A DNA stretch of 28,587 nucleotides, from IMG/VR virus record IMGVR_UViG_2617270959_000006. One strand, 5' to 3'. Positions 26-11,694 of this stretch are shown here, one piece after another (position 1 is the first letter of the stretch; each line of letters opens with the position of its first letter). The notes under the pieces were generated by a model. It was not told the origin of the DNA. It saw only the letters and a list, made by a program, of their open reading frames with translations, and searched no databases. Source of the stretch: a virus. Lineage: Duplodnaviria > Heunggongvirae > Uroviricota > Caudoviricetes. A program made the translations under genes and the position numbers.

Positions 26-57
26 TGGTATTACGCCTGATATGATTTAACGTGCCG

Positions 58-1170
58 ATGAATTACTCTCACGATAACTGGTCAGCAATTCTGGCCCATA
101 TTGGTAAGCCCGAAGAACTGGATACTTCGGCACGTAATGCCGGGGCTCTAACCCGCCGCCGCGAAATTCGTGATGCTGCAACTCTGCTACGTCTGGGGCT
201 GGCTTACGGCCCCGGGGGGATGTCATTACGTGAAGTCACTGCATGGGCTCAGCTCCATGACGTTGCAACATTATCTGACGTGGCTCTCCTGAAGCGGCTG
301 CGGAATGCCGCCGACTGGTTTGGCATACTTGCCGCACAAACACTTGCTGTACGCGCCGCAGTTACGGGTTGTACAAGCGGAAAGAGATTGCGTCTTGTCG
401 ATGGAACAGCAATCAGTGCGCCCGGGGGCGGCAGCGCTGAATGGCGACTACATATGGGATATGATCCTCATACCTGTCAGTTCACTGATTTTGAGCTAAC
501 CGACAGCAGAGACGCTGAACGGCTGGACCGATTTGCGCAAACGGCAGACGAGATACGCATTGCTGACCGGGGATTCGGTTCGCGTCCCGAATGTATCCGC
601 TCACTTGCTTTTGGAGAAGCTGATTATATCGTCCGGGTTCACTGGCGAGGATTGCGCTGGTTAACTGCAGAAGGAATGCGCTTTGACATGATGGGTTTTC
701 TGCGCGGGCTGGATTGCGGTAAGAACGGTGAAACCACTGTAATGATAGGCAATTCAGGTAATAAAAAAGCCGGAGCTCCCTTTCCGGCACGTCTCATTGC
801 CGTATCACTTCCTCCCGAAAAAGCATTAATCAGTAAAACCCGACTGCTCAGCGAGAATCGTCGAAAAGGACGAGTAGTTCAGGCGGAAACGCTGGAAGCA
901 GCGGGCCATGTGCTATTGCTAACATCATTACCGGAAGATGAATATTCAGCAGAGCAAGTGGCTGATTGTTACCGTCTGCGATGGCAAATTGAACTGGCTT
1001 TTAAGCGGCTCAAAAGTTTGCTGCACCTGGATGCTTTGCGTGCAAAGGAACCTGAACTCGCGAAAGCGTGGATATTTGCTAATCTACTCGCCGCATTTTT
1101 AATTGACGACATAATCCAGCCATCGCTGGATTTCCCCCCCAGAAGTGCCGGATCCGAAAAGAAGAACTAA
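58..1170 (+). CDS. insL: IS186 transposase (DDE, IS4 family), 370 aa
   Basis: ORF track 52..1170; ATG at 58 gives MNYSHDNWSAILAHIGKPEEL..., which I recognise as the IS186 transposase; the GTG at 52 is a possible alternative start. Confidence 0.9.
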   Translation: MNYSHDNWSAILAHIGKPEELDTSARNAGALTRRREIRDAATLLRLGLAYGPGGMSLREVTAWAQLHDVATLSDVALLKRLRNAADWFGILAAQTLAVRAAVTGCTSGKRLRLVDGTAISAPGGGSAEWRLHMGYDPHTCQFTDFELTDSRDAERLDRFAQTADEIRIADRGFGSRPECIRSLAFGEADYIVRVHWRGLRWLTAEGMRFDMMGFLRGLDCGKNGETTVMIGNSGNKKAGAPFPARLIAVSLPPEKALISKTRLLSENRRKGRVVQAETLEAAGHVLLLTSLPEDEYSAEQVADCYRLRWQIELAFKRLKSLLHLDALRAKEPELAKAWIFANLLAAFLIDDIIQPSLDFPPRSAGSEKKN

Positions 1171-3574: not shown

Positions 3575-3650
<76 letters not shown>

Positions 3651-3653
3651 TAT

Positions 3654-3728
<75 letters not shown>

Positions 3729-5681: not shown

Positions 5682-5818
5682 AATCTTAACTACAATATGA
5701 TTCATTTTGATGATTGTTTCATAAGGAACAGTGAAGTAAGATCTAAGATGAGTTAAATTTTATACAGTATAATCATAATATTGCAGCAAGGTGGTTATAA
5801 TTGAAAGAATATTTAGAT

Positions 5819-7276
5819 ATGAATACATCTCATGTAAGAGTTGTTACTCATATGTGTGGGTTCCTGGTTTGGCTCTATAGTCTTTCAATGTTGCCACCAA
5901 TGGTTGTAGCATTGTTTTATAAAGAAAAAAGCCTGTTCGTTTTCTTTATAACTTTCGTTATATTTTTTTGCATTGGTGGCGGAGCGTGGTATACAACTAA
6001 GAAATCTGGCATTCAATTACGTACCCGTGATGGGTTTATTATAATTGTAATGTTTTGGATTTTGTTTTCTGTTATTAGTGCATTCCCTTTATGGATTGAC
6101 TCAGAACTTAATTTAACGTTCATTGATGCTCTGTTTGAAGGGGTTTCTGGAATAACAACAACAGGAGCAACTGTAATTGATGATGTTAGTTCATTACCTC
6201 GGGCATATTTGTACTATCGGTCACAGTTAAATTTTATAGGTGGTTTAGGAGTTATTGTTCTGGCGGTTGCTGTATTGCCATTATTGGGTATTGGTGGTGC
6301 AAAGCTTTATCAGTCAGAAATGCCGGGGCCATTTAAGGATGACAAACTCACTCCCCGCCTGGCCGATACGTCACGGACACTGTGGATAACTTATTCTTTA
6401 TTAGGTATTGCTTGTATTGTCTGTTATAGACTTGCAGGAATGCCTTTGTTTGATGCTATTTGTCACGGGATTTCCACAGTTTCGCTTGGTGGTTTCTCAA
6501 CTCATAGCGAGAGTATCGGATATTTTAATAACTATTTGGTTGAGCTGGTGGCTGGTTCTTTTTCCCTGCTATCGGCTTTCAACTTCACTCTTTGGTATAT
6601 TGTTATTAGCAGGAAAACGATAAAACCTTTAATCAGAGATATTGAACTTCGTTTCTTTCTGTTAATAGCCTTAGGGGTGATCATTGTTACCTCTTTCCAG
6701 GTCTGGCATATAGGTATGTATGACTTGCATGGAAGTTTTATTCATTCGTTTTTTCTTGCCAGCTCCATGCTCACTGATAATGGTTTAGCTACGCAGGATT
6801 ATGCAAACTGGCCCACGCACACGATAGTGTTTTTGCTGTTGTCAAGTTTCTTTGGGGGATGTATAGGTTCAACTTGTGGTGGAATTAAGTCACTTCGATT
6901 TCTTATACTTTTCAAACAAAGCAAACACGAGATAAATCAGCTTTCTCATCCCAGAGCGTTGTTGAGTGTAAATGTAGGAGGGAAGATAGTTACAGATCGT
7001 GTAATGAGGTCTGTATGGAGTTTCTTTTTTCTTTATACTCTCTTCACGGTGTTTTTTATACTGGTGTTAAATGGTATGGGATATGATTTTCTTACATCAT
7101 TTGCAACAGTGGCTGCATGTATTAATAATATGGGATTAGGTTTTGGGGCTACTGCATCGTCATTCGGAGTGCTTAATGACATTGCAAAATATTTAATGTG
7201 CATAGCTATGATTCTTGGTCGCCTTGAAATTTATCCTGTTATTATATTGTTTTCAGGTTTTTTTTGGCGCTCCTAA
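5819..7276 (+). CDS. trkG: TrkG, Trk-system K+ uptake membrane protein (TrkH/KtrB family), 485 aa; low-GC moron
   Basis: Polytopic membrane protein starting MNTSHVRVVTHMCGFLVWLY..., which I recognise as the Rac-prophage TrkG; markedly AT-rich relative to its neighbours. The track's TTG at 5801 is an alternative start. Confidence 0.9.
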   Translation: MNTSHVRVVTHMCGFLVWLYSLSMLPPMVVALFYKEKSLFVFFITFVIFFCIGGGAWYTTKKSGIQLRTRDGFIIIVMFWILFSVISAFPLWIDSELNLTFIDALFEGVSGITTTGATVIDDVSSLPRAYLYYRSQLNFIGGLGVIVLAVAVLPLLGIGGAKLYQSEMPGPFKDDKLTPRLADTSRTLWITYSLLGIACIVCYRLAGMPLFDAICHGISTVSLGGFSTHSESIGYFNNYLVELVAGSFSLLSAFNFTLWYIVISRKTIKPLIRDIELRFFLLIALGVIIVTSFQVWHIGMYDLHGSFIHSFFLASSMLTDNGLATQDYANWPTHTIVFLLLSSFFGGCIGSTCGGIKSLRFLILFKQSKHEINQLSHPRALLSVNVGGKIVTDRVMRSVWSFFFLYTLFTVFFILVLNGMGYDFLTSFATVAACINNMGLGFGATASSFGVLNDIAKYLMCIAMILGRLEIYPVIILFSGFFWRS

Positions 7277-7363
7277 TATATGGCTGATTTATAATTGTGA
7301 GTTTAATATTATATTGACTCACTCATTGATCCAATACCTAACTTTACCAGCAACACCTCCGCC

Positions 7364-7398
7364 CCCAGTAGCACTGGCTGCTGGGGTGCGTTTTATTC
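7364..7398 (+). terminator. Possible terminator hairpin downstream of trkG
   Basis: ccccag...ctgggg imperfect stem followed by tgcgttttatt; the U-tract is offset from the stem. Confidence 0.35.
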
Positions 7399-7413
7399 AT
7401 AAAGCAAGGCTGT

Positions 7414-8202
7414 ATGAGCGAGAAATTAAAGATAGTCTATCGCCCATTACAAGAATTGTCACCGTATGCGCACAACGCCAGGACGCACAGTACTGAGCAG
7501 GTGGCACAACTGGTAGAAAGTATTAAGCAATTCGGCTGGACTAATCCGGTGCTGATTGACGAAAAGGGCGAAATTATTGCGGGTCACGGTCGTGTTATGG
7601 CGGCTGAAATGCTCAAAATGGATTCTGTTCCGGTCATTGTTCTGTCTGGCCTGACGGATGAGCAGAAAAAGGCGTACCGCCTGGCAGATAATCGCCTACC
7701 GATGAATGCTGGCTGGGATGAAGATCTATTGCGGATGGAGCTGTCGGACCTAATCAATGCTGATTTTGATGTCTCCCTGACAGGCTTCGGCCCGACAGAA
7801 ATTGATGAACTGTTGACGGATGTTTTGCCCGGTACAGGAAATAAGGAGGAGCCGTATACGACGAAAATTGATACGCCTGTTTATGAGCCGTCGGGCGGTA
7901 AACCGGATATCAGTGAACTGTACGACGATACGAAAACTCAGGAGCTGATCAGCCGGATACGTTCGGCGTCCCTTGATCCTGATATTGAGAAATTCCTCCT
8001 GTGTGCGGCAGAACGTCACACGGTGTTTAATTTCAGCAGAATTGCGGACTATTACGCTCATGCCCCCGCTGAAATTCAGTGCCTTTTCGAGGAGTCGGCG
8101 CTGGTGATCATTGATTATCAGCAGGCTATTGAAAATGGATTTGTCCGAATGACGCAGCGCATGGTGGCGATCATGCATAGCGGGGAGGAGGAATATGCGT
8201 GA
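7414..8202 (+). CDS. ParB/Srx-like nuclease-domain protein (YnaK-like position), 262 aa
   Basis: N-terminal ~90 aa follow the ParB N-domain pattern (PYAHNART...LVESI...GWTNPVLI...IIAGHGRVMAA...VPVIV); C-terminal 170 aa unassigned. Sits in the trkG-ynaK-ydaY position known from Rac. Confidence 0.7.
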   Translation: MSEKLKIVYRPLQELSPYAHNARTHSTEQVAQLVESIKQFGWTNPVLIDEKGEIIAGHGRVMAAEMLKMDSVPVIVLSGLTDEQKKAYRLADNRLPMNAGWDEDLLRMELSDLINADFDVSLTGFGPTEIDELLTDVLPGTGNKEEPYTTKIDTPVYEPSGGKPDISELYDDTKTQELISRIRSASLDPDIEKFLLCAAERHTVFNFSRIADYYAHAPAEIQCLFEESALVIIDYQQAIENGFVRMTQRMVAIMHSGEEEYA

Positions 8203-9127
8203 TGATTTTTGCGCCTTTATTCTGACTCACGGGCGACCGGACAAAGTTCTGACTTACCGGACGTTGCGTCGTGCTGGCTATACCGGGAAAATTTTTATCG
8301 TTGTTGATGATGAAGATAAGACACGGCATCAGTACATGGCTGAATTTGGTGAACAGGTGCTGGTATTTTCCAAAGCCGATATTGCCAGTCGTTTTGACGA
8401 AGCCGATAATTTTGGTGACCGCCGCTCAATTTTTTACGCCCGTAATGCCTGTTTCGACCTGGCAAAACTGGTCGGGTGTAAATACTTCATTCAGCTCGAT
8501 GATGATTATCACGAGTTCCAGTTTCGGGTGGATCGCAACTATGACCAGGCCTATTTCCCGATAAGGAAACTGGATGCGATCCTTTCTGAAATGCTGGCGT
8601 ATTACGAATCAATACCCGCGCTTTCCATCGCTATGTCGCAGGGCGGGGATTTTCTTGGTGACAATGGCGGCCATGCTTCGTGGGTGAAACGCAAGGCAAT
8701 GAACAGCTTTATCTGTTCGGTTGATCGACCGTTCTCATTCATGGGGCGCATTAACGAGGATGTGAATACGTACACGAATCTCGGTCGCTGTGGTGAATTG
8801 TTTATGACGATCGGTGCTGTCCAGTTAGGGCAGAAACAGACGCAGAAAAACAGCGGCGGAATGACCGAGCTGTATCTGGATTCCGGAACCTACGTTAAAA
8901 GTTTTTACTCCGTCATGTATGCGCCGTCGTGCGTAAAAATCTCACTGATGGGTGCCAGCCATAAACGCATTCACCATCAGGTCACCTGGAACAACGCTGC
9001 AGTAAAAATCCTTCACGAAAAATACAGGAAGAAGACACCCTGCATATCAATGGGGGTGACAAATGATTCCGTATTCGAAAGTCGAGTCTCTGGCAGCGTG
9101 CCGGATGACTGCACAACAAATCGCTGA
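8195..9127 (+). CDS. GT-A-like putative glycosyltransferase (YdaY-like position), 310 aa
   Basis: ATG after GAGGAGG and overlapping the upstream stop; motif spacing typical of the GT-A fold: FILTHGRP (8-15), FIVVDDED (34-41), IQLDDDY (99-105, DxD). Fold call is a motif-based inference. Confidence 0.5.
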   Translation: MRDDFCAFILTHGRPDKVLTYRTLRRAGYTGKIFIVVDDEDKTRHQYMAEFGEQVLVFSKADIASRFDEADNFGDRRSIFYARNACFDLAKLVGCKYFIQLDDDYHEFQFRVDRNYDQAYFPIRKLDAILSEMLAYYESIPALSIAMSQGGDFLGDNGGHASWVKRKAMNSFICSVDRPFSFMGRINEDVNTYTNLGRCGELFMTIGAVQLGQKQTQKNSGGMTELYLDSGTYVKSFYSVMYAPSCVKISLMGASHKRIHHQVTWNNAAVKILHEKYRKKTPCISMGVTNDSVFESRVSGSVPDDCTTNR

Positions 9128-9314
9128 CGTTCTGGATGTTGATCTGAACCGACTGAAAGAAAATCGGGAAGCAATGACAGATTTTTATGCGGCCATCCGT
9201 AAGGGCAGAGCGAAAGGTGAAGCCGAGTTACGAGCGGCATTGTTTAAGCTTGCCAGAAAAGGGGATGCCTTTGCTCTGCGCGAACTACTCAGGGTGGATA
9301 AAAATCAGGACTAA
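9063..9314 (+). CDS. Small basic helix-turn-helix-like protein, 83 aa (packaging accessory or regulator?)
   Basis: ATG with GGGGGTGA 5 nt upstream; overlaps the last 65 nt of the upstream gene in another frame; predicted helical, Lys/Arg-rich. Confidence 0.45.
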   Translation: MIPYSKVESLAACRMTAQQIADVLDVDLNRLKENREAMTDFYAAIRKGRAKGEAELRAALFKLARKGDAFALRELLRVDKNQD

Positions 9315-9317
9315 CTG

Positions 9318-10412
9318 ATGAGCAGACCGGACTGGGGGGCGTTGCAGCAGGAGTATATTGCTGAATACACCCGCTCCGGTATATCTCCGGTGGCATGGTG
9401 TGAAGCAAGGGGACTGAACTACGCAACAGCCCGTCGTTACATCAAAAAAACTCCGAAAAATGCGCAGAAAGAAATGCGCAAAACTGCGCAAAAAAGTGCG
9501 CGAAAAAAAACTGCGCAGACTGCGCAAAGGCAGAACGGAAAATCTCAGAAAAAAAAGGCTGTATCCGATGCACTCCTGATTGAGGGGGACACGGAAGAAA
9601 TTTCGTTCTGCCCCGATGAATTCGGTATTTCTGACCAGCAGGCAAAATTCGTCATGTTGGTTGCTCAGGGGAAAAAGCCGACAGAGGCATACCGACTGGC
9701 TGGTTATGAGGGGCAAGGTGCGACAGCTAACAGCAACGCCAGCCGTATGCTTAGAAATGCCAGGGTTTATCGTGCTATCAGCTACTTCCGCAATCAGTAC
9801 CAGAAACGCTATACCGCAGACCTGGATTTACTGGTGAGCCAGTTGATGGCCATTGTCCAGGCCGACCCCAATCAGTTGGCACAATTTCGCCGTGTTAACT
9901 GCCGTTATTGCTGGGGCGAGAATCATCTCTACCAGTGGCGTGATATTGCAGAATTCGATAAGGCTGCGGCACAGGCCTCCAGAGATGGTAAACCCGAGCC
10001 GGAATATGGAGGCCTCGGCTTTGTTGATAACGCCATACCCAATCCGGATTGCCCGAAGTGCTGCGGTGAGGGAACGGGACAGCTTTATATGGCTGATACC
10101 ACACTGCTTGATGGGGATGCGCGGCAATTATATGCAGGGTCAAAGCTCGGAAAATACGGTGTTGAGATCCTGCTGGAGGATAAGGCTGCCGCCCGGCGTG
10201 AATTGTTGCGTTTGCTTTCTGCTGGCGGGGCATTATGTGCAGATAAACGGCTACAGGAACTGGAAATTGAACGGCGCAGAATAGAAAACCAGAAGCTGCG
10301 CAAAGAGATCGAAACGGTGGAGGATAATGAACATCCCCAGCCTGTGGCGATCAATATTAATGTGGTTGATGCCAGATTAAGGAGTGATGAAGATGATCTC
10401 TCCGACGCTTAA
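9318..10412 (+). CDS. Terminase small subunit, atypically long (364 aa) with low-complexity basic region and Cys-rich segment
   Basis: Central region resembles the P27-type small-terminase domain (ISDQQAKFVMLVAQGKKPTEAYRLAGYEG...); lies directly upstream of the large subunit; contains C-x2-C ... C-x2-CC. Confidence 0.65.
   Translation: MSRPDWGALQQEYIAEYTRSGISPVAWCEARGLNYATARRYIKKTPKNAQKEMRKTAQKSARKKTAQTAQRQNGKSQKKKAVSDALLIEGDTEEISFCPDEFGISDQQAKFVMLVAQGKKPTEAYRLAGYEGQGATANSNASRMLRNARVYRAISYFRNQYQKRYTADLDLLVSQLMAIVQADPNQLAQFRRVNCRYCWGENHLYQWRDIAEFDKAAAQASRDGKPEPEYGGLGFVDNAIPNPDCPKCCGEGTGQLYMADTTLLDGDARQLYAGSKLGKYGVEILLEDKAAARRELLRLLSAGGALCADKRLQELEIERRRIENQKLRKEIETVEDNEHPQPVAININVVDARLRSDEDDLSDA
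9461..9526. repeat. Array of six TGCGC(A/G) motifs at 9-15 bp spacing inside terS
   Basis: Motifs at 9461, 9475, 9485, 9497, 9512 and 9521, interspersed with A-runs; encode KNAQKEMRKTAQKSARKKTAQTAQRQ. Confidence 0.8.
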
Positions 10413-11694
10413 TGTGCCTCAGGCGCGATTTCTTTCAATGCCCCATAAATTTAAAGCCTATATTGCTGGTTTTGGCTCGGGCAAAACATGGGTTGGGTGT
10501 GGCGGCATATGCAAGGGGATTTGGGAGCATCCAGGTATAAATCAGGGATATTTTGCGCCAACGTATCCCCAAATTCGCGATATTTTTTACCCTACAGTGG
10601 AAGAAGTTGCTGCTGACTGGGGATTGAACGTAAAAATTAATGAGGGAAATAAAGAGGTTCACTTTTATTACGGACGCCAGTATCGGGGAACCACTATCTG
10701 CAGATCGATGGAGAAGCCACAAACGATCGTCGGTTTCAAAATTGGTAATGCGCTGGTGGATGAACTGGATATTTTGCCGAAGGAAAAAGCCAGAACGGCG
10801 TGGCGCAAGATAATTGCGCGTATGCGTTATAAGATTGATGGACTTCGCAACGGTATTGACGTTACAACCACGCCGGAAGGATTCAAATTTGTCTACGAGC
10901 AGTTTGTTAAAGCCGTGCGTGAAAAAACAGAGCTGGCCTCACTGTATGGTCTGGTGCAGGCATCTACTTTCGATAATGAAAAGAACCTGCCAGCAGATTA
11001 CATTCCTTCACTTCTTGAATCATACCCTCCAGGGTTGATTAAAGCCTATCTTCTAGGACGGTTTACTAACCTGACAAGTGGTACTGTTTACCATCAGTTT
11101 GACCGGAAACTGAATAATTGCGAAGAAGTGGAGCAGCCAGGGGAGCCGATTTATATTGGGATGGATTTTAACGTTGGAAAGATGGCGGGAATCGTCCATG
11201 TGCTGCGTTTGGGGCTTCCATGTGCGGTAACTGAAATCATCAATGCCTACGATACGCCGGATATGATCCGCCTCATTAAAGAACGCTTCTGGCCGTATGA
11301 CGGGCATGATTACCGGAAAGTGAGGGAGATTTATATTTATCCAGATGCTTCCGGAGATTCCAGAAAATCAAGTAACGCAAGTACGACGGATATAGCCCAG
11401 CTTAAGCAGGCAGGTTTTAACGTTGTGGTGAACAGCTCGAACCCGCCAGTAAAAGATCGCGTTAACTCAATGAATGCAATGTTCTGCAATGCCAATGGTG
11501 AGCGTCGCTATAAAGTTAATGTGAAGCGTTGTCCGGTATATGCCGAATCTCTGGAGCAACAGGTCTGGGATGATAAGGGGGAGCCTGATAAAAAATCTGG
11601 CAATGATCACCCGAATGATGCCGGAGGTTATTTCATCGTTAAGCAATTCCCTATTGTCAAACCGACCGGAAGAGTCACATCACTTCGGATTTAA
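10393..11694 (+). CDS. Terminase large subunit, ~433 aa
   Basis: Walker A-like GFGSGKT near the N-terminus, acidic nuclease-type C-terminal half; AAGGAG 8 nt upstream of the ATG at 10393. The track's GTG at 10384 is an alternative start. Confidence 0.85.
   Translation: MISPTLNVPQARFLSMPHKFKAYIAGFGSGKTWVGCGGICKGIWEHPGINQGYFAPTYPQIRDIFYPTVEEVAADWGLNVKINEGNKEVHFYYGRQYRGTTICRSMEKPQTIVGFKIGNALVDELDILPKEKARTAWRKIIARMRYKIDGLRNGIDVTTTPEGFKFVYEQFVKAVREKTELASLYGLVQASTFDNEKNLPADYIPSLLESYPPGLIKAYLLGRFTNLTSGTVYHQFDRKLNNCEEVEQPGEPIYIGMDFNVGKMAGIVHVLRLGLPCAVTEIINAYDTPDMIRLIKERFWPYDGHDYRKVREIYIYPDASGDSRKSSNASTTDIAQLKQAGFNVVVNSSNPPVKDRVNSMNAMFCNANGERRYKVNVKRCPVYAESLEQQVWDDKGEPDKKSGNDHPNDAGGYFIVKQFPIVKPTGRVTSLRI

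What the first reader, a model, noticed from the sequence alone, without database searches (positions are those of the whole stretch)
7414..9127. Two-gene cassette, ParB-like nuclease-domain protein plus GT-A-like glycosyltransferase, just upstream of the terminase: candidate DNA-modification, anti-restriction or defence module
The 262-aa protein has a ParB/Srx-type N-domain (GHGR variant of the ParB arginine motif) with 170 aa of unassigned C-terminus. The translationally coupled 310-aa protein shows GT-A motif spacing (hTHGRP, VVDDED, LDDDY). Neither is a recognised virion or packaging component, and both are intact here although they are decayed in K-12 Rac. A DNA-binding ParB-like domain paired with a sugar transferase next to the packaging genes suggests sugar modification of phage DNA (anti-restriction), a packaging-linked activity, or an abortive-infection or exclusion function. 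To my knowledge this pair is uncharacterised.
Basis: inference. Interest (0 to 1): 0.65.

Follow-up and report, generated by a model that had tools for sequence, protein, structure and literature searches.

The report
Phage sugar-transferase with obligate ParB-like partner
Two overlapping late genes of a Rac-like E. coli prophage encode a TET-associated-family glycosyltransferase and a ParB-like protein whose undescribed C-terminal domain sat next to this enzyme in every sampled virus with sequence there (bacterial and archaeal), most likely a partner-assisted DNA-glycosylating module whose sugar acceptor is unknown.

Summary
7414-8202 (262 aa) and 8195-9127 (310 aa) are intact genes that overlap by 8 nt.

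- **The transferase.** The 310-aa protein belongs to Pfam TAGT (PF20691, E 5.5e-35). It has a GT-A fold and invariant R...DDD...ED motifs.
- **The partner.** The 262-aa protein has a ParB-CTPase-fold N-domain. It also has a roughly 110-aa C-terminal domain (CTD) with no Pfam or PDB-sequence match.
- **CTD+GT is the invariant core.** A CTD-bearing ORF lies upstream of the GT in 79 of 80 species-level loci across many phyla. The exception has no upstream DNA. The reverse association held in 6 of 6 sampled contigs. A natural TAGT-ParB_N-CTD fusion also exists.
- **The ParB N-domain is dispensable.** It is missing in about 10% of loci. There the pair sits among replisome genes (Pol A, beta-clamp, primase-helicase) rather than ahead of terminase.
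- **No acceptor source.** Complete genomes carrying the pair have no recognisable source of 5hmC or 5hmU.

Best reading (about 0.5): a partner-activated, post-replicative DNA glycosyltransferase expressed late. It would be analogous to the published ParB-dependent phage thymine dioxygenase. The acceptor is unknown. No defence or exclusion role is supported.

The pair itself is uncharacterised, but its family and the idea of ParB assisting DNA modification are known. I rate it a new variant of a known kind, interest about 0.6.

The parts
7363..7396 (+). Intrinsic-terminator-like hairpin plus U-tract between the trkG stop (7276) and the cassette. It insulates the cassette from the trkG moron.
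   Evidence: The scan finds a 10-bp stem with 7 GC pairs followed by TGCGTTTTAT. RNA fold: -25.2 kcal/mol, z = -4.5, 0 of 200 shuffles as stable.
7414..7830 (+). Partner protein, residues 1-139: ParB-CTPase-fold N-domain. It is acidic (family median net charge -13). It keeps the NTP-binding positions (R23, S36, G41, GHGR R60, N93) but has N21 and H58 at the two hydrolysis positions.
   Evidence: Pfam ParB_N; PHROG ParB and MTase-fusion families; PADLOC MTase_II N-terminal region; alignment to Spo0J/ParB structures; Foldseek hits to Noc, PadC, ParB-CDP and KorB; invariant columns; charge.
7831..8202 (+). Partner protein, residues 140-262: undescribed conserved C-terminal domain (CTD). It has an invariant extended motif Y148-T-x-K-I-x-x-P-x-Y157-E-P, then a helical bundle with FLxxAAxRHTVFNF...Q...E.SALVIID...G. 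It is strongly acidic and is the invariant partner of this GT subfamily.
   Evidence: Invariant columns. No significant Pfam or PDB-sequence match. About 1,192 clusters at 50% identity in the exhaustive search. Upstream of the GT in 79/80 loci. Stand-alone CTD proteins exist. AF2 predicts helices with a disordered motif. Charge.
8183..8202 (+). Coupling junction: GGGAGGAGG ribosome-binding site, then the GT ATG (8195) overlapping the partner's stop codon (TGA 8200-8202) by 8 nt.
   Evidence: Read directly from the sequence. The same overlapping arrangement occurs in phi jlb1, HHTV-2, NTR1, c5 and the Porphyromonas phage.
8195..8845 (+). GT residues 1-217: GT-A catalytic core of the TAGT family, with invariant R14, D41, D102-D103-D104 and N187-(E188)-D189.
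8846..9034 (+). GT residues 218-280: conserved basic tail (GGMTELYLDSGTYVKSFYSVMY.PSCVK...RIHH.V.W; net charge about +6). It is a candidate nucleic-acid-binding or partner-binding element.
   Evidence: Invariant K235, F237, Y238, P244, R258, H260, H261, W265. pI 9.7. Low AF2 confidence despite conservation. phrog_31222 covers residues 199-280.
9035..9127 (+). GT residues 281-310: non-conserved C-terminal extension specific to the E. coli lineage. It overlaps the start of the next small gene.
   Evidence: Homologues end at about residue 280-290. RefSeq annotates a 69-aa gene at window 9105-9314.

Best explanation
The cassette encodes a two-component, post-replicative DNA glycosyltransferase that the phage makes late in lytic growth.

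**Proposed mechanism**
- The 310-aa protein is the catalytic subunit. It is a metal-dependent GT-A enzyme of the TAGT family that uses an NDP-sugar.
- It works as a complex with the 262-aa protein. The acidic C-terminal domain of that protein docks on the enzyme, probably on its basic conserved tail.
- The ParB-CTPase-fold N-domain supplies NTP-gated engagement with, or tracking along, double-stranded DNA.
- In this way the partner activates the enzyme on dsDNA, in the manner shown for the ParB176/5mYOX176 thymine-dioxygenase pair.
- In lineages that lack the ParB N-domain, the CTD+GT pair is embedded in the replisome gene set, and a phage beta-clamp may take the DNA-tracking role.
- The sugar mark would be laid on concatemeric phage DNA before packaging and would protect it from nucleases in the next host.

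**Shown here**
- Family, fold and catalytic motifs.
- The obligate genetic pairing.
- The fusion protein.
- The late-operon or replisome contexts.
- The charge complementarity.
- The absence of recognisable hydroxymethyl-pyrimidine enzymes.

**Inferred**
- The physical complex.
- DNA as substrate.
- The activation mechanism.
- Protection as the benefit.

**Unknown**
- The acceptor atom and the sugar.
For: 1. **Family.** TAGT membership is strong. Characterised relatives put sugars on DNA: the T2/T6 beta-glucosyl-HMC-alpha-GT (PMC13216743), the phage GT-A enzymes of 5mYOX clusters, and JGT as structural homologue (bioRxiv 10.1101/2023.12.21.572611).
2. **Fold and motifs.** GT-A fold and intact catalytic motifs.
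3. **Pairing with the CTD.**
   - 79/80 species-level loci; 74 are overlapping or adjacent and 5 are separated only by a second TAGT paralog.
   - Reverse check positive in 6/6 contigs.
   - The T4-like TAGT lacks the CTD.
4. **Fusion.** A TAGT'-ParB_N-CTD fusion occurs on three independent contigs. On the one long contig it is followed by a TAGT, TerL and portal; on the two short contigs the next gene is a TAGT.
5. **ParB fold as a DNA-modification partner.**
   - It is an obligate activator of 5mYOX176 on dsDNA and lacks a DNA-binding domain, as here (PMC13229309).
   - It is fused to phage N6/N4 methyltransferases (PMC12704722).
6. **Replication context.** CTD-only forms lie between Pol A, primase-helicase, beta-clamp and helicase genes. 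All 3 loci with a beta-clamp neighbour are CTD-only, a chance of about 1e-3.
7. **Universal substrate.** 40-60% identity across Gram-negative, Gram-positive and archaeal hosts argues for a universal substrate rather than a host-specific envelope polymer.
8. **Late expression.** The pair is the first gene pair of the late operon in c5 and phi jlb1, and it sits behind a terminator in the window.
9. **Charge.** The GT is basic (median pI 8.8, tail +6) and the partner acidic (-13 and -10 to -16).
Against: - **No acceptor.** Complete genomes with the pair (c5, phi jlb1, the Rac-like prophage) have no annotated dioxygenase, hydroxymethylase, methyltransferase or polymerase. None recurs among 148 neighbour families. 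Canonical bases offer no hydroxyl.
- **Direct glycosylation is unprecedented.** Sugar transfer straight onto a canonical base has no precedent that I know of.
- **A protein-glycosylating relative exists.** GREB1, a TAGT-family member, glycosylates a protein (PMC7968844).
- **The partner is very acidic** and has no DNA-binding domain.
- **NTP motifs may not matter.** NTP-motif mutants of ParB176 still activated their enzyme, so the clamp idea is not established even for the precedent.
- **No complex model.** No heterodimer structure could be predicted here, and the regions proposed to interact have low AF2 confidence.
Confidence: 0.5

Rival explanations
1. The GT glycosylates a protein, not DNA. 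The acceptor could be the partner itself (its invariant, apparently disordered Y-T-x-K...P-x-Y-E-P motif, by analogy with glycogenin self-glucosylation). It could also be a phage or host protein that the partner recruits.
Against: A dedicated substrate protein kept with its enzyme across all these viruses, with a ParB NTPase domain attached, has no obvious purpose. The replisome context of CTD-only forms and the MTase and dioxygenase precedents for ParB-fold partners point to DNA. Tandem second GTs are typical of glycan extension on DNA in T-even and 5mYOX systems.
Confidence: 0.15
2. The pair glycosylates a nucleotide, RNA or small-molecule target as a counter-defence. The target could be a modified tRNA base or an immune signalling nucleotide. 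The ParB-fold domain would then serve as an NTP-binding or kinase-like module rather than a DNA clamp.
For: ParB/Srx-fold proteins include true enzymes and ATP/GTP binders (Srx, SerK). The partner has no DNA-binding domain and is acidic. A universal soluble target would also explain the cross-domain conservation.
Against: There is no precedent within TAGT. PADLOC and the other libraries give no link to known signalling-based systems. About 10% of loci dispense with the ParB N-domain altogether. The neighbours are DNA-handling genes.
Confidence: 0.1
3. The module marks DNA sparsely at specific sites for packaging or regulation (a pac/cos-linked or epigenetic-like mark) rather than protecting it in bulk. 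This is the Aravind hypothesis that ParB directs modification machinery to sites during packaging.
For: The cassette sits immediately upstream of terS/terL in most loci. The hypothesis is stated in the literature. The ParB-dependent dioxygenase gave low, sequence-selective modification. Sparse marks would explain why no modification was noticed in long-studied phages.
Against: The terminases belong to at least five unrelated families, so no specific packaging partner co-evolves with the cassette. CTD-only forms sit in replication modules far from terminase. The cassette is decayed or lost in viable relatives such as LL-Ku and Ld25A, so it is accessory rather than part of packaging.
Confidence: 0.1
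4. Lysogenic conversion or defence: the GT alters a host envelope glycan, as TarP or Gtr enzymes do. Alternatively the pair acts as an abortive-infection or exclusion system in the lysogen.
Against: The same pair, at 40-60% identity, occurs in hosts with unrelated envelopes, including a haloarchaeon, and in strictly lytic phages. There are no membrane segments or Gtr partners. A strong terminator separates it from trkG, and it heads the late operon. The GT has no PADLOC hit.
Confidence: 0.04

Closest known systems
T2/T6 beta-glucosyl-HMC-alpha-glucosyltransferase and other TAGT (PF20691) DNA glycosyltransferases, including the 5mYOX-cluster GT-A enzymes and trypanosome JGT
   Same: Same Pfam family (E 5.5e-35) and the same PHROG (phrog_842). 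It shares the GT-A fold and the R...DDD...ED active-site motifs. It is phage-encoded, and tandem GT pairs occur as they do in T-even and 5mYOX clusters.
   Different: Sequence identity to T4-like TAGTs is only about 23-25%. There is no alpha/beta-GT, no dCMP/dUMP hydroxymethylase and no TET/JBP dioxygenase in the genome, so the known acceptors (glucosyl-5hmC, 5hmC, 5hmU) are not available. This subfamily has an obligate CTD-bearing partner, which the T4-like enzyme lacks.
ParB176/5mYOX176, the ParB-dependent phage thymine dioxygenase (O'Toole et al., PNAS 2026, PMC13229309)
   Same: A phage ParB-like protein with an N-terminal NTP-binding domain and a C-terminal domain, but no HTH DNA-binding domain, is encoded next to a post-replicative DNA-modifying enzyme. 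Pairs are cognate-specific.
   Different: The enzyme here is a glycosyltransferase, not an Fe/2OG dioxygenase. In that study GTs were associated with the ParB-independent clade. Whether the two C-terminal domains are homologous could not be tested because the sequence is not held. Here the CTD, not the ParB N-domain, is the invariant element.
ParB_N-DNA methyltransferase fusions of phages and prophages (phrog_498; PADLOC MTase_II; Kaljevic et al., PNAS 2025, PMC12704722)
   Same: The N-domain (residues 1-140) is 40-55% identical to the N-domains of these fusions. They occupy the same genomic niche, just upstream of terS in temperate phages.
   Different: The catalytic partner is a separate GT polypeptide bridged by the CTD, rather than a fused SAM-dependent methyltransferase.
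T4 alpha-glucosyltransferase working with the replisome clamp gp45
   Same: Conceptually, a DNA sugar transferase is tethered to a DNA-tracking ring. CTD-only versions of this module sit next to a phage beta-clamp gene.
   Different: T4 alpha-GT is a GT-B enzyme with no sequence relation. The tethering proposed here is inferred from gene context only.
Chromosomal and plasmid ParB (Spo0J, Noc, KorB)
   Same: Same N-terminal CTPase fold. The phosphate- and base-binding positions are conserved.
   Different: It has no HTH/parS-binding domain, no ParA partner and no ParA-binding motif region. Both hydrolysis residues are substituted (Q to N, E to H). Its C-terminal domain is different.

Membership tests
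TAGT (Pfam PF20691) GT-A DNA-base glycosyltransferases | Sequence match above the curated Pfam threshold | tested here: met
   121.6 bits against a cutoff of 27.5, residues 8-222. phrog_842 E 9e-104.
TAGT (Pfam PF20691) GT-A DNA-base glycosyltransferases | GT-A fold with R...DDD...ED(Y/F) active-site motifs | tested here: met
TAGT (Pfam PF20691) GT-A DNA-base glycosyltransferases | A source of the hydroxylated acceptor base in the same genome (TET/JBP dioxygenase, a thymidylate-synthase-type hydroxymethylase, or a first GT) | tested here: not met
   None is annotated in the complete c5, phi jlb1 or Rac-like prophage genomes. None appears among the top families of 148 dereplicated neighbours. 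Unrecognised enzymes cannot be excluded.
TAGT (Pfam PF20691) GT-A DNA-base glycosyltransferases | Transfers a sugar from an NDP-sugar to DNA | not testable with these tools
   Needs nucleoside LC-MS or an in vitro assay.
ParB-CTPase fold (ParB/Srx, PF02195) | Sequence and fold of the N-terminal domain | tested here: met
   Pfam 29.3 bits against 26.3, which is marginal. PHROG ParB families down to E 3e-90. phmmer hits to Spo0J/ParB/Noc. Foldseek hits to Noc, PadC, ParB-CDP, KorB and Srx.
ParB-CTPase fold (ParB/Srx, PF02195) | Nucleotide-binding residues (Box I R, C-motif S/G, GxxR arginine, Box III N) | tested here: met
   R23, S36, G41, R60 and N93 are conserved or invariant. The two hydrolysis positions are N21 (for Q) and H58 (for E), so hydrolysis is uncertain.
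Canonical partition ParB (ParABS) | HTH parS-binding domain, a ParA partner and a C-terminal dimerisation domain of the ParB type | tested here: not met
   No HTH or ParB-C Pfam hit. TIGR00180 scores 38 bits against a cutoff of 58. No parA is annotated in the prophage. The CTD has no match to known domains.
ParB-dependent phage DNA-modification systems (5mYOX176/ParB176 type) | ParB-like protein with NBD and CTD but no DNA-binding domain, encoded beside a DNA-modifying enzyme | tested here: met
   Architecture. Adjacency and overlap.
ParB-dependent phage DNA-modification systems (5mYOX176/ParB176 type) | Enzyme activity on dsDNA depends on the cognate ParB-like protein | not testable with these tools
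   Only genetic coupling and a natural fusion are shown.
ParB-dependent phage DNA-modification systems (5mYOX176/ParB176 type) | Homology of the partner's C-terminal domain to that of ParB176 | not tested
   The ParB176 sequence is not held (no supplements).
Known anti-phage defence systems (PADLOC-DB) | Match to a defence-system protein model | tested here: not met
   The GT has no hit. The partner hits only the ParB-like N-terminal part of an MTase_II model.
Prophage seroconversion glycosyltransferases (TarP / Gtr type) | Host-envelope acceptor, expression in the lysogen, restriction to hosts sharing that polymer | tested here: not met
   The pair occurs across bacterial phyla, in an archaeal virus and in lytic phages. 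It is in a late-operon position behind a terminator. Expression itself was not measured.

The most novel reading that the evidence does not exclude
The CTD+TAGT pair installs a sugar directly on a canonical DNA base or another universal DNA position, with no hydroxymethyl-pyrimidine precursor. That would be a previously unknown DNA modification chemistry. It would be carried by thousands of temperate and lytic viruses of bacteria and archaea, including prophages in about one in six complete E. coli genomes. The new CTD would be the subunit that makes this possible, and ParB-type or beta-type clamps would be interchangeable DNA-tracking platforms.
Probability: 0.25. Interest if true: 0.85.

Novelty: new variant of a known kind. 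Interest (0 to 1): 0.6.

Why it matters
**How common it is**
- There are at least 8,000 GT clusters at 90% identity and about 1,200 CTD clusters at 50% identity.
- The full cassette is present in 867 of 5,426 complete E. coli genomes.
- It also occurs in gut Bacteroides, Clostridia, Veillonella, lactobacilli, actinomycetes, Vibrio phages and a haloarchaeal virus.

**An open question in the field**
- Two recent papers flag 'solitary' TAGT or GT-A genes without a dioxygenase or hydroxymethylase as unexplained.
- One counts 288 of 753 phages. The other counts about 65% of 25,000 contigs.
- This analysis gives that set a defining partner (the CTD), a natural fusion, and two alternative genomic settings (late operon with ParB_N; replisome without it).
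- Together these make the question directly testable in E. coli with a 1.7-kb construct.

**If the substrate is DNA**
- It would extend the ParB-as-activator principle from dioxygenases to glycosyltransferases.
- It may reveal a new base modification relevant to restriction and CRISPR evasion, phage therapy host range, sequencing artefacts and enzymatic DNA labelling.

**If the substrate is a protein**
- It would be a widespread viral glycosylation system of unknown purpose.

Tried and rejected
**Hypotheses tested and rejected**
- **Defence system.** PADLOC gave nothing for the GT, and only a shared ParB-like N-domain for the partner.
- **Hidden hypermodification pathway.**
  - I read the complete annotations of phage c5, phi jlb1 and a 100%-identical Rac-like prophage.
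  - I bulk-scanned 148 dereplicated upstream neighbour families.
  - There was no recurrent TET/JBP or thymidylate-synthase-type enzyme, only sporadic C5/N6 methylases, PAPS reductase and sugar-nucleotide genes.
- **Specific link to a packaging machine.** The downstream TerL belongs to at least five Pfam families.
- **'Other N-terminal domains' in some partners.** At relaxed thresholds these are just divergent ParB N-domains.

**Searches that led nowhere**
- **Identity of the CTD.** A profile search against PDB sequences and a permissive Pfam scan gave only noise: designed armadillo repeats and a 20-residue sub-threshold match to mycobacteriophage L5 gp47.
- **Radical-SAM neighbour.** Only the generic core matches PqqE/HydE.
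- **Literature.**
  - Iyer et al. 2013 is not held.
  - A ynaK/ydaY search returned nothing useful.
  - The Nat Commun 2025 accessory-gene screen does not cover this pair.
- **Minus-strand ORFs at 25.6-28.6 kb.** They looked like an insertion but are antisense artefacts inside gpJ, which runs off the window.

- The afdb50 fold library was unavailable.
- A heterodimer structure prediction was not possible.
Full report
**1. What is in the sequence**

The two ORFs are exactly as reported. They are 7414..8202 (+, 262 aa) and 8195..9127 (+, 310 aa). They overlap by 8 nt (ATGCGTGA). A strong GGGAGGAGG ribosome-binding site lies just upstream of the second start.

The window is the late half of a Rac-like lambdoid prophage. 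In order it contains:
- an IS transposase
- DUF1367
- YbcO
- a Q-type antiterminator
- tRNA-Thr and tRNA-Gly
- holin, lysozyme and Rz
- the trkG moron (TrkH family, 5801-7276)
- the cassette
- a small ORF
- TerS (9318-10412)
- TerL (10384-11694)
- portal
- a Mu-F-like head protein
- head and tail genes, then gpJ running off the end

Between the trkG stop and the cassette lies a stable hairpin with a U-tract at 7363-7396. Its folding energy is -25.2 kcal/mol with z = -4.5. I read it as the terminator of the trkG moron. The cassette would then be reached only by Q-antiterminated late transcription. That step is inference.

**2. Identity of the two proteins**

*The 310-aa protein.*
- It matches Pfam PF20691, 'TET-Associated Glycosyltransferase', at 121.6 bits over residues 8-222.
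- It matches phrog_842, labelled 'beta-glucosyl-HMC-alpha-glucosyltransferase', at E 9e-104. RefSeq calls it 'GREB1-related protein'.
- An AlphaFold2 model is confident over the first ~150-180 residues.
- Its nearest viral structural neighbours are all TAGT-domain proteins, with TM up to 0.69.
They match the R...DDD...ED(Y/F) signature described for phage DNA GT-A enzymes.
- Residues 218-280 form a conserved, basic tail with net charge about +6. The monomer model leaves it at low confidence.
- Residues 281-310 are a lineage-specific extension.

*The 262-aa protein, N-terminal part.*
- It has a ParB-CTPase-fold N-domain. Evidence is Pfam ParB_N (marginal at 29.3 bits against 26.3), strong PHROG ParB families, and sequence matches to Spo0J, ParB and Noc. 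Foldseek also hits Noc, PadC, ParB-CDP, KorB and sulfiredoxin.
- The nucleotide-binding positions are kept: R23, S36, G41, R60 of GHGR, and N93.
- The two positions used for CTP hydrolysis in MxParB are N21 and H58 (with residue roles).

*The 262-aa protein, C-terminal part.*
- Residues about 145-250 are at least as conserved as the N-domain.
- An invariant extended motif, Y-T-x-K-I-x-x-P-x-Y-E-P, is followed by a helical bundle with FLxxAAxRHTVFNF...Q...E.SALVIID...G.
- This C-terminal domain (CTD) has no significant Pfam or PDB-sequence match.
- An exhaustive HMMER search with the CTD alone found 1,192 clusters at 50% identity.
- Both halves of the partner are strongly acidic, with net charge -13 and -10 to -16.

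**3. The pair is one module, and its core is CTD + GT**

*Recurrence of the arrangement.* The overlapping order partner then GT recurs in sequenced phages of very different hosts:
- Lactobacillus phi jlb1
- L. delbrueckii phage c5, where they are the first two genes after cos
- Nocardia NTR1
- a Porphyromonas phage
- the haloarchaeal virus HHTV-2

*Forward test of the association.* A scan of one genome per species returned 80 loci. They come from Proteobacteria, Bacteroidota, Firmicutes, Planctomycetota, Verrucomicrobiota, Acidobacteriota, Actinobacteria, Saccharibacteria and an archaeon, at 43-60% identity. In 79 of these loci an ORF carrying the CTD lies upstream on the same strand. The single exception has no upstream DNA. 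In 74 loci the two genes overlap or abut. In 5 they are separated only by a second TAGT paralog.

*Reverse test of the association.* I started from CTD proteins chosen independently of the GT. Every contig with DNA downstream carried this GT next, 6 of 6.

*Natural fusion.* A 534-aa protein is made of a divergent TAGT domain, ParB_N and the CTD. It is 38% identical to the window partner over 250 aa. It occurs on three independent contigs. On the longest it is followed by a second TAGT, TerL and portal.

*Subfamily specificity.* The classical T4-like TAGT of Aeromonas phage Aeh1 has neither domain within 4 kb. The CTD partner is therefore specific to this subfamily.

**4. The ParB N-domain is frequent but dispensable, and its absence correlates with context**

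Among partners not cut by contig ends, about 89% have a ParB N-domain, sometimes very divergent. About 11% are stand-alone CTD proteins of 130-150 aa. The CTD-only pairs are not next to terminase. They sit inside replication modules:
- L112: Pol A, TAGT', CTD, TAGT, beta-clamp
- L116: Pol A, CTD, TAGT, beta-clamp
- L147: TAGT', CTD, TAGT, beta-clamp
- L105: primase-helicase, CTD, TAGT, SNF2 helicase
- 191-kb lytic Vibrio phage pv27: primase and exonuclease genes upstream (not immediately adjacent), then CTD, TAGT, helicase

All three loci with a beta-clamp neighbour are CTD-only. By chance this would happen about once in a thousand.

In the ParB_N-containing loci the first large downstream gene is usually TerL. 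It belongs to at least five unrelated Pfam families. The cassette therefore occupies a recurrent slot at the head of the late operon and does not co-evolve with a particular packaging motor.

**5. What is missing**

Characterised DNA-acting TAGT-type enzymes need a hydroxyl acceptor such as 5hmC, 5hmU or a first sugar. I looked for a source of such a base.
- The complete genomes of c5 (31.8 kb) and phi jlb1 (38.3 kb) have no annotated dioxygenase, hydroxymethylase, DNA methyltransferase or DNA polymerase. Neither does a complete Rac-like prophage that is 100% identical across the queried cassette region (window 7300-9320).
- Among 148 dereplicated upstream neighbour families, none of these enzymes appears among the 25 most frequent of the 69 families hit.
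- C5 and N6/N4 methylases, a radical-SAM gene directly after the GT, and NDP-sugar genes occur only sporadically.

**6. What is known**

- TAGT is the family of the T2/T6 beta-glucosyl-HMC-alpha-GT. A 2026 study found 288 of 753 GT-bearing phages with a 'solitary' TAGT and called the function 'yet to be defined' (PMC13216743).
- A metavirome survey found about 65% of 25,000 GT contigs without a 5mYOX or ThyS neighbour. It noted ParB-like and terminase genes nearby and set them aside (bioRxiv 10.1101/2023.12.21.572611).
- Aravind's group proposed in 2013 that ParB proteins direct modification machinery, as restated.
- In 2025-26 a phage ParB-like protein with NBD and CTD but no DNA-binding domain was shown to be an obligate, cognate-specific activator. 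It activates a thymine dioxygenase on dsDNA (PMC13229309).
- The ParB-CTPase fold is frequently fused to phage N6/N4 methyltransferases and binds CTP, ATP or GTP (PMC12704722). The N-domain here is 40-55% identical to those fusion domains.
- GREB1, an animal TAGT-family protein, glycosylates a protein (PMC7968844).
- I found no paper characterising the ParB/CTD + TAGT pair.

**7. Most likely mechanism**

I commit to a two-component, post-replicative DNA glycosyltransferase, at about 0.5 confidence.
- The basic GT-A enzyme is the catalytic subunit.
- The acidic CTD binds it. The two conserved but low-confidence segments, the GT tail and the CTD motif, are the likely interface.
- The ParB N-domain provides NTP-gated access to, or tracking along, dsDNA.
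- Where the N-domain is missing, a replisome clamp may do that job, in the way T4 alpha-GT is proposed to use its replisome association.
- Expression at the start of the late operon, or within the replication module, puts the enzyme on replicated concatemers before packaging.

The family, fold, motifs, pairing, fusion, contexts and charges are shown. The complex, the substrate and the benefit are inferred. The acceptor and sugar are unknown.

**8. Rivals**

- Protein glycosylation, possibly of the partner's invariant Tyr/Thr motif: 0.15.
- A nucleotide, RNA or small-molecule target: 0.10.
- A sparse site-specific packaging or regulatory mark: 0.10.
- Envelope conversion or defence: 0.04. The cross-domain distribution, presence in lytic phages, late position behind a terminator and absence of PADLOC hits all argue against this one.

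**9.

- The K-12 Rac statement is only half right. ynaK is truncated to 87 aa, but the GT is deleted together with terminase, portal and head genes. ydaY is a tail-region gene.
- The GT is not merely 'GT-A-like'. It belongs to a named DNA-glycosyltransferase family.
- The 'unassigned C-terminus' is the most informative part of the cassette.

**10. Verdict**

This is a real, intact, very widespread and experimentally uncharacterised module. It is best filed as a new variant of a known kind: a TAGT-family enzyme with a ParB-type accessory protein.

It has two unusual features. One is an undescribed obligate partner domain. The other is the lack of any known acceptor pathway. Interest is 0.6. The most novel reading that is not excluded, direct glycosylation of canonical DNA, has a probability of about 0.25.

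Noticed in passing
L169:20115-20372 (window 7414-7671) in NZ_CP042899.1 and similar RefSeq records: PGAP annotates the intact 262-aa gene as a partial 'ynaK' pseudogene ('missing C-terminus'), although the queried cassette region (window 7300-9320) is 100% identical to the window. The call is apparently modelled on K-12's 87-aa truncated YnaK. The partner gene is therefore probably under-annotated in many E. coli genomes.
   Followed up: partly
L170 (K-12 MG1655 Rac) compared with L169:31918-32277: K-12 ydaY is the small tail-region gene that lies between the tail tube and tape-measure genes of intact relatives. K-12 Rac carries one deletion running from ynaK codon ~85 to ydaY. It removes the GT, terminase, portal, head and several tail genes.
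   Followed up: yes
window 9063-9314 (RefSeq start 9105): A small ORF (83 or 69 aa) overlaps the 3' end of the GT gene and sits just before the 364-aa TerS. It matches the middle of a PHROG small-terminase family (phrog_309, E 8e-23). It may be a split-off TerS DNA-binding module.
   Followed up: no
L140:6860-7816; L174:1262-2230; about 7 loci in all: A radical-SAM gene sits directly after the GT and before TerL in a subset of phages. Only the generic radical-SAM core matches known structures, so its role is unknown. It could tailor the sugar or make an acceptor.
   Followed up: partly
L141, L144, L156, L157, L163 (between partner and GT); L112:2970-3842; L147:4794-5600; P0390: Some lineages carry a second, divergent TAGT paralog in tandem, or fused to the partner. 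This suggests a two-step (disaccharide) modification, as in T2/T6.
   Followed up: partly
single loci within A5 and A8: NDP-sugar metabolism genes turn up next to the pair in individual phages. An epimerase/dehydratase and a nucleotidyl transferase lie upstream in some, and UDP-galactopyranose mutase lies downstream in one. This hints that the donor sugar varies between lineages.
   Followed up: no
window 3575-3728: tRNA-Thr(TGT) and tRNA-Gly(TCC) lie between the Q-like antiterminator and the holin gene. The related prophage in CFSAN061763 carries tRNA-Ile and tRNA-Arg at the equivalent position, so the tRNA cargo differs between otherwise similar Rac-like prophages.
   Followed up: no
window 52-1170: An IS-type DDE transposase (DDE_Tnp_1) lies at the left edge of the window, upstream of the DUF1367/YbcO/Q region. 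The early or nin region of this prophage is therefore interrupted or rearranged relative to CFSAN061763.
   Followed up: no
window 9318-10412: The small terminase is unusually long (364 aa). It has a lysine/arginine/glutamine-rich low-complexity stretch at about residues 45-85, between an N-terminal HTH-like part and the Terminase_2 domain.
   Followed up: no
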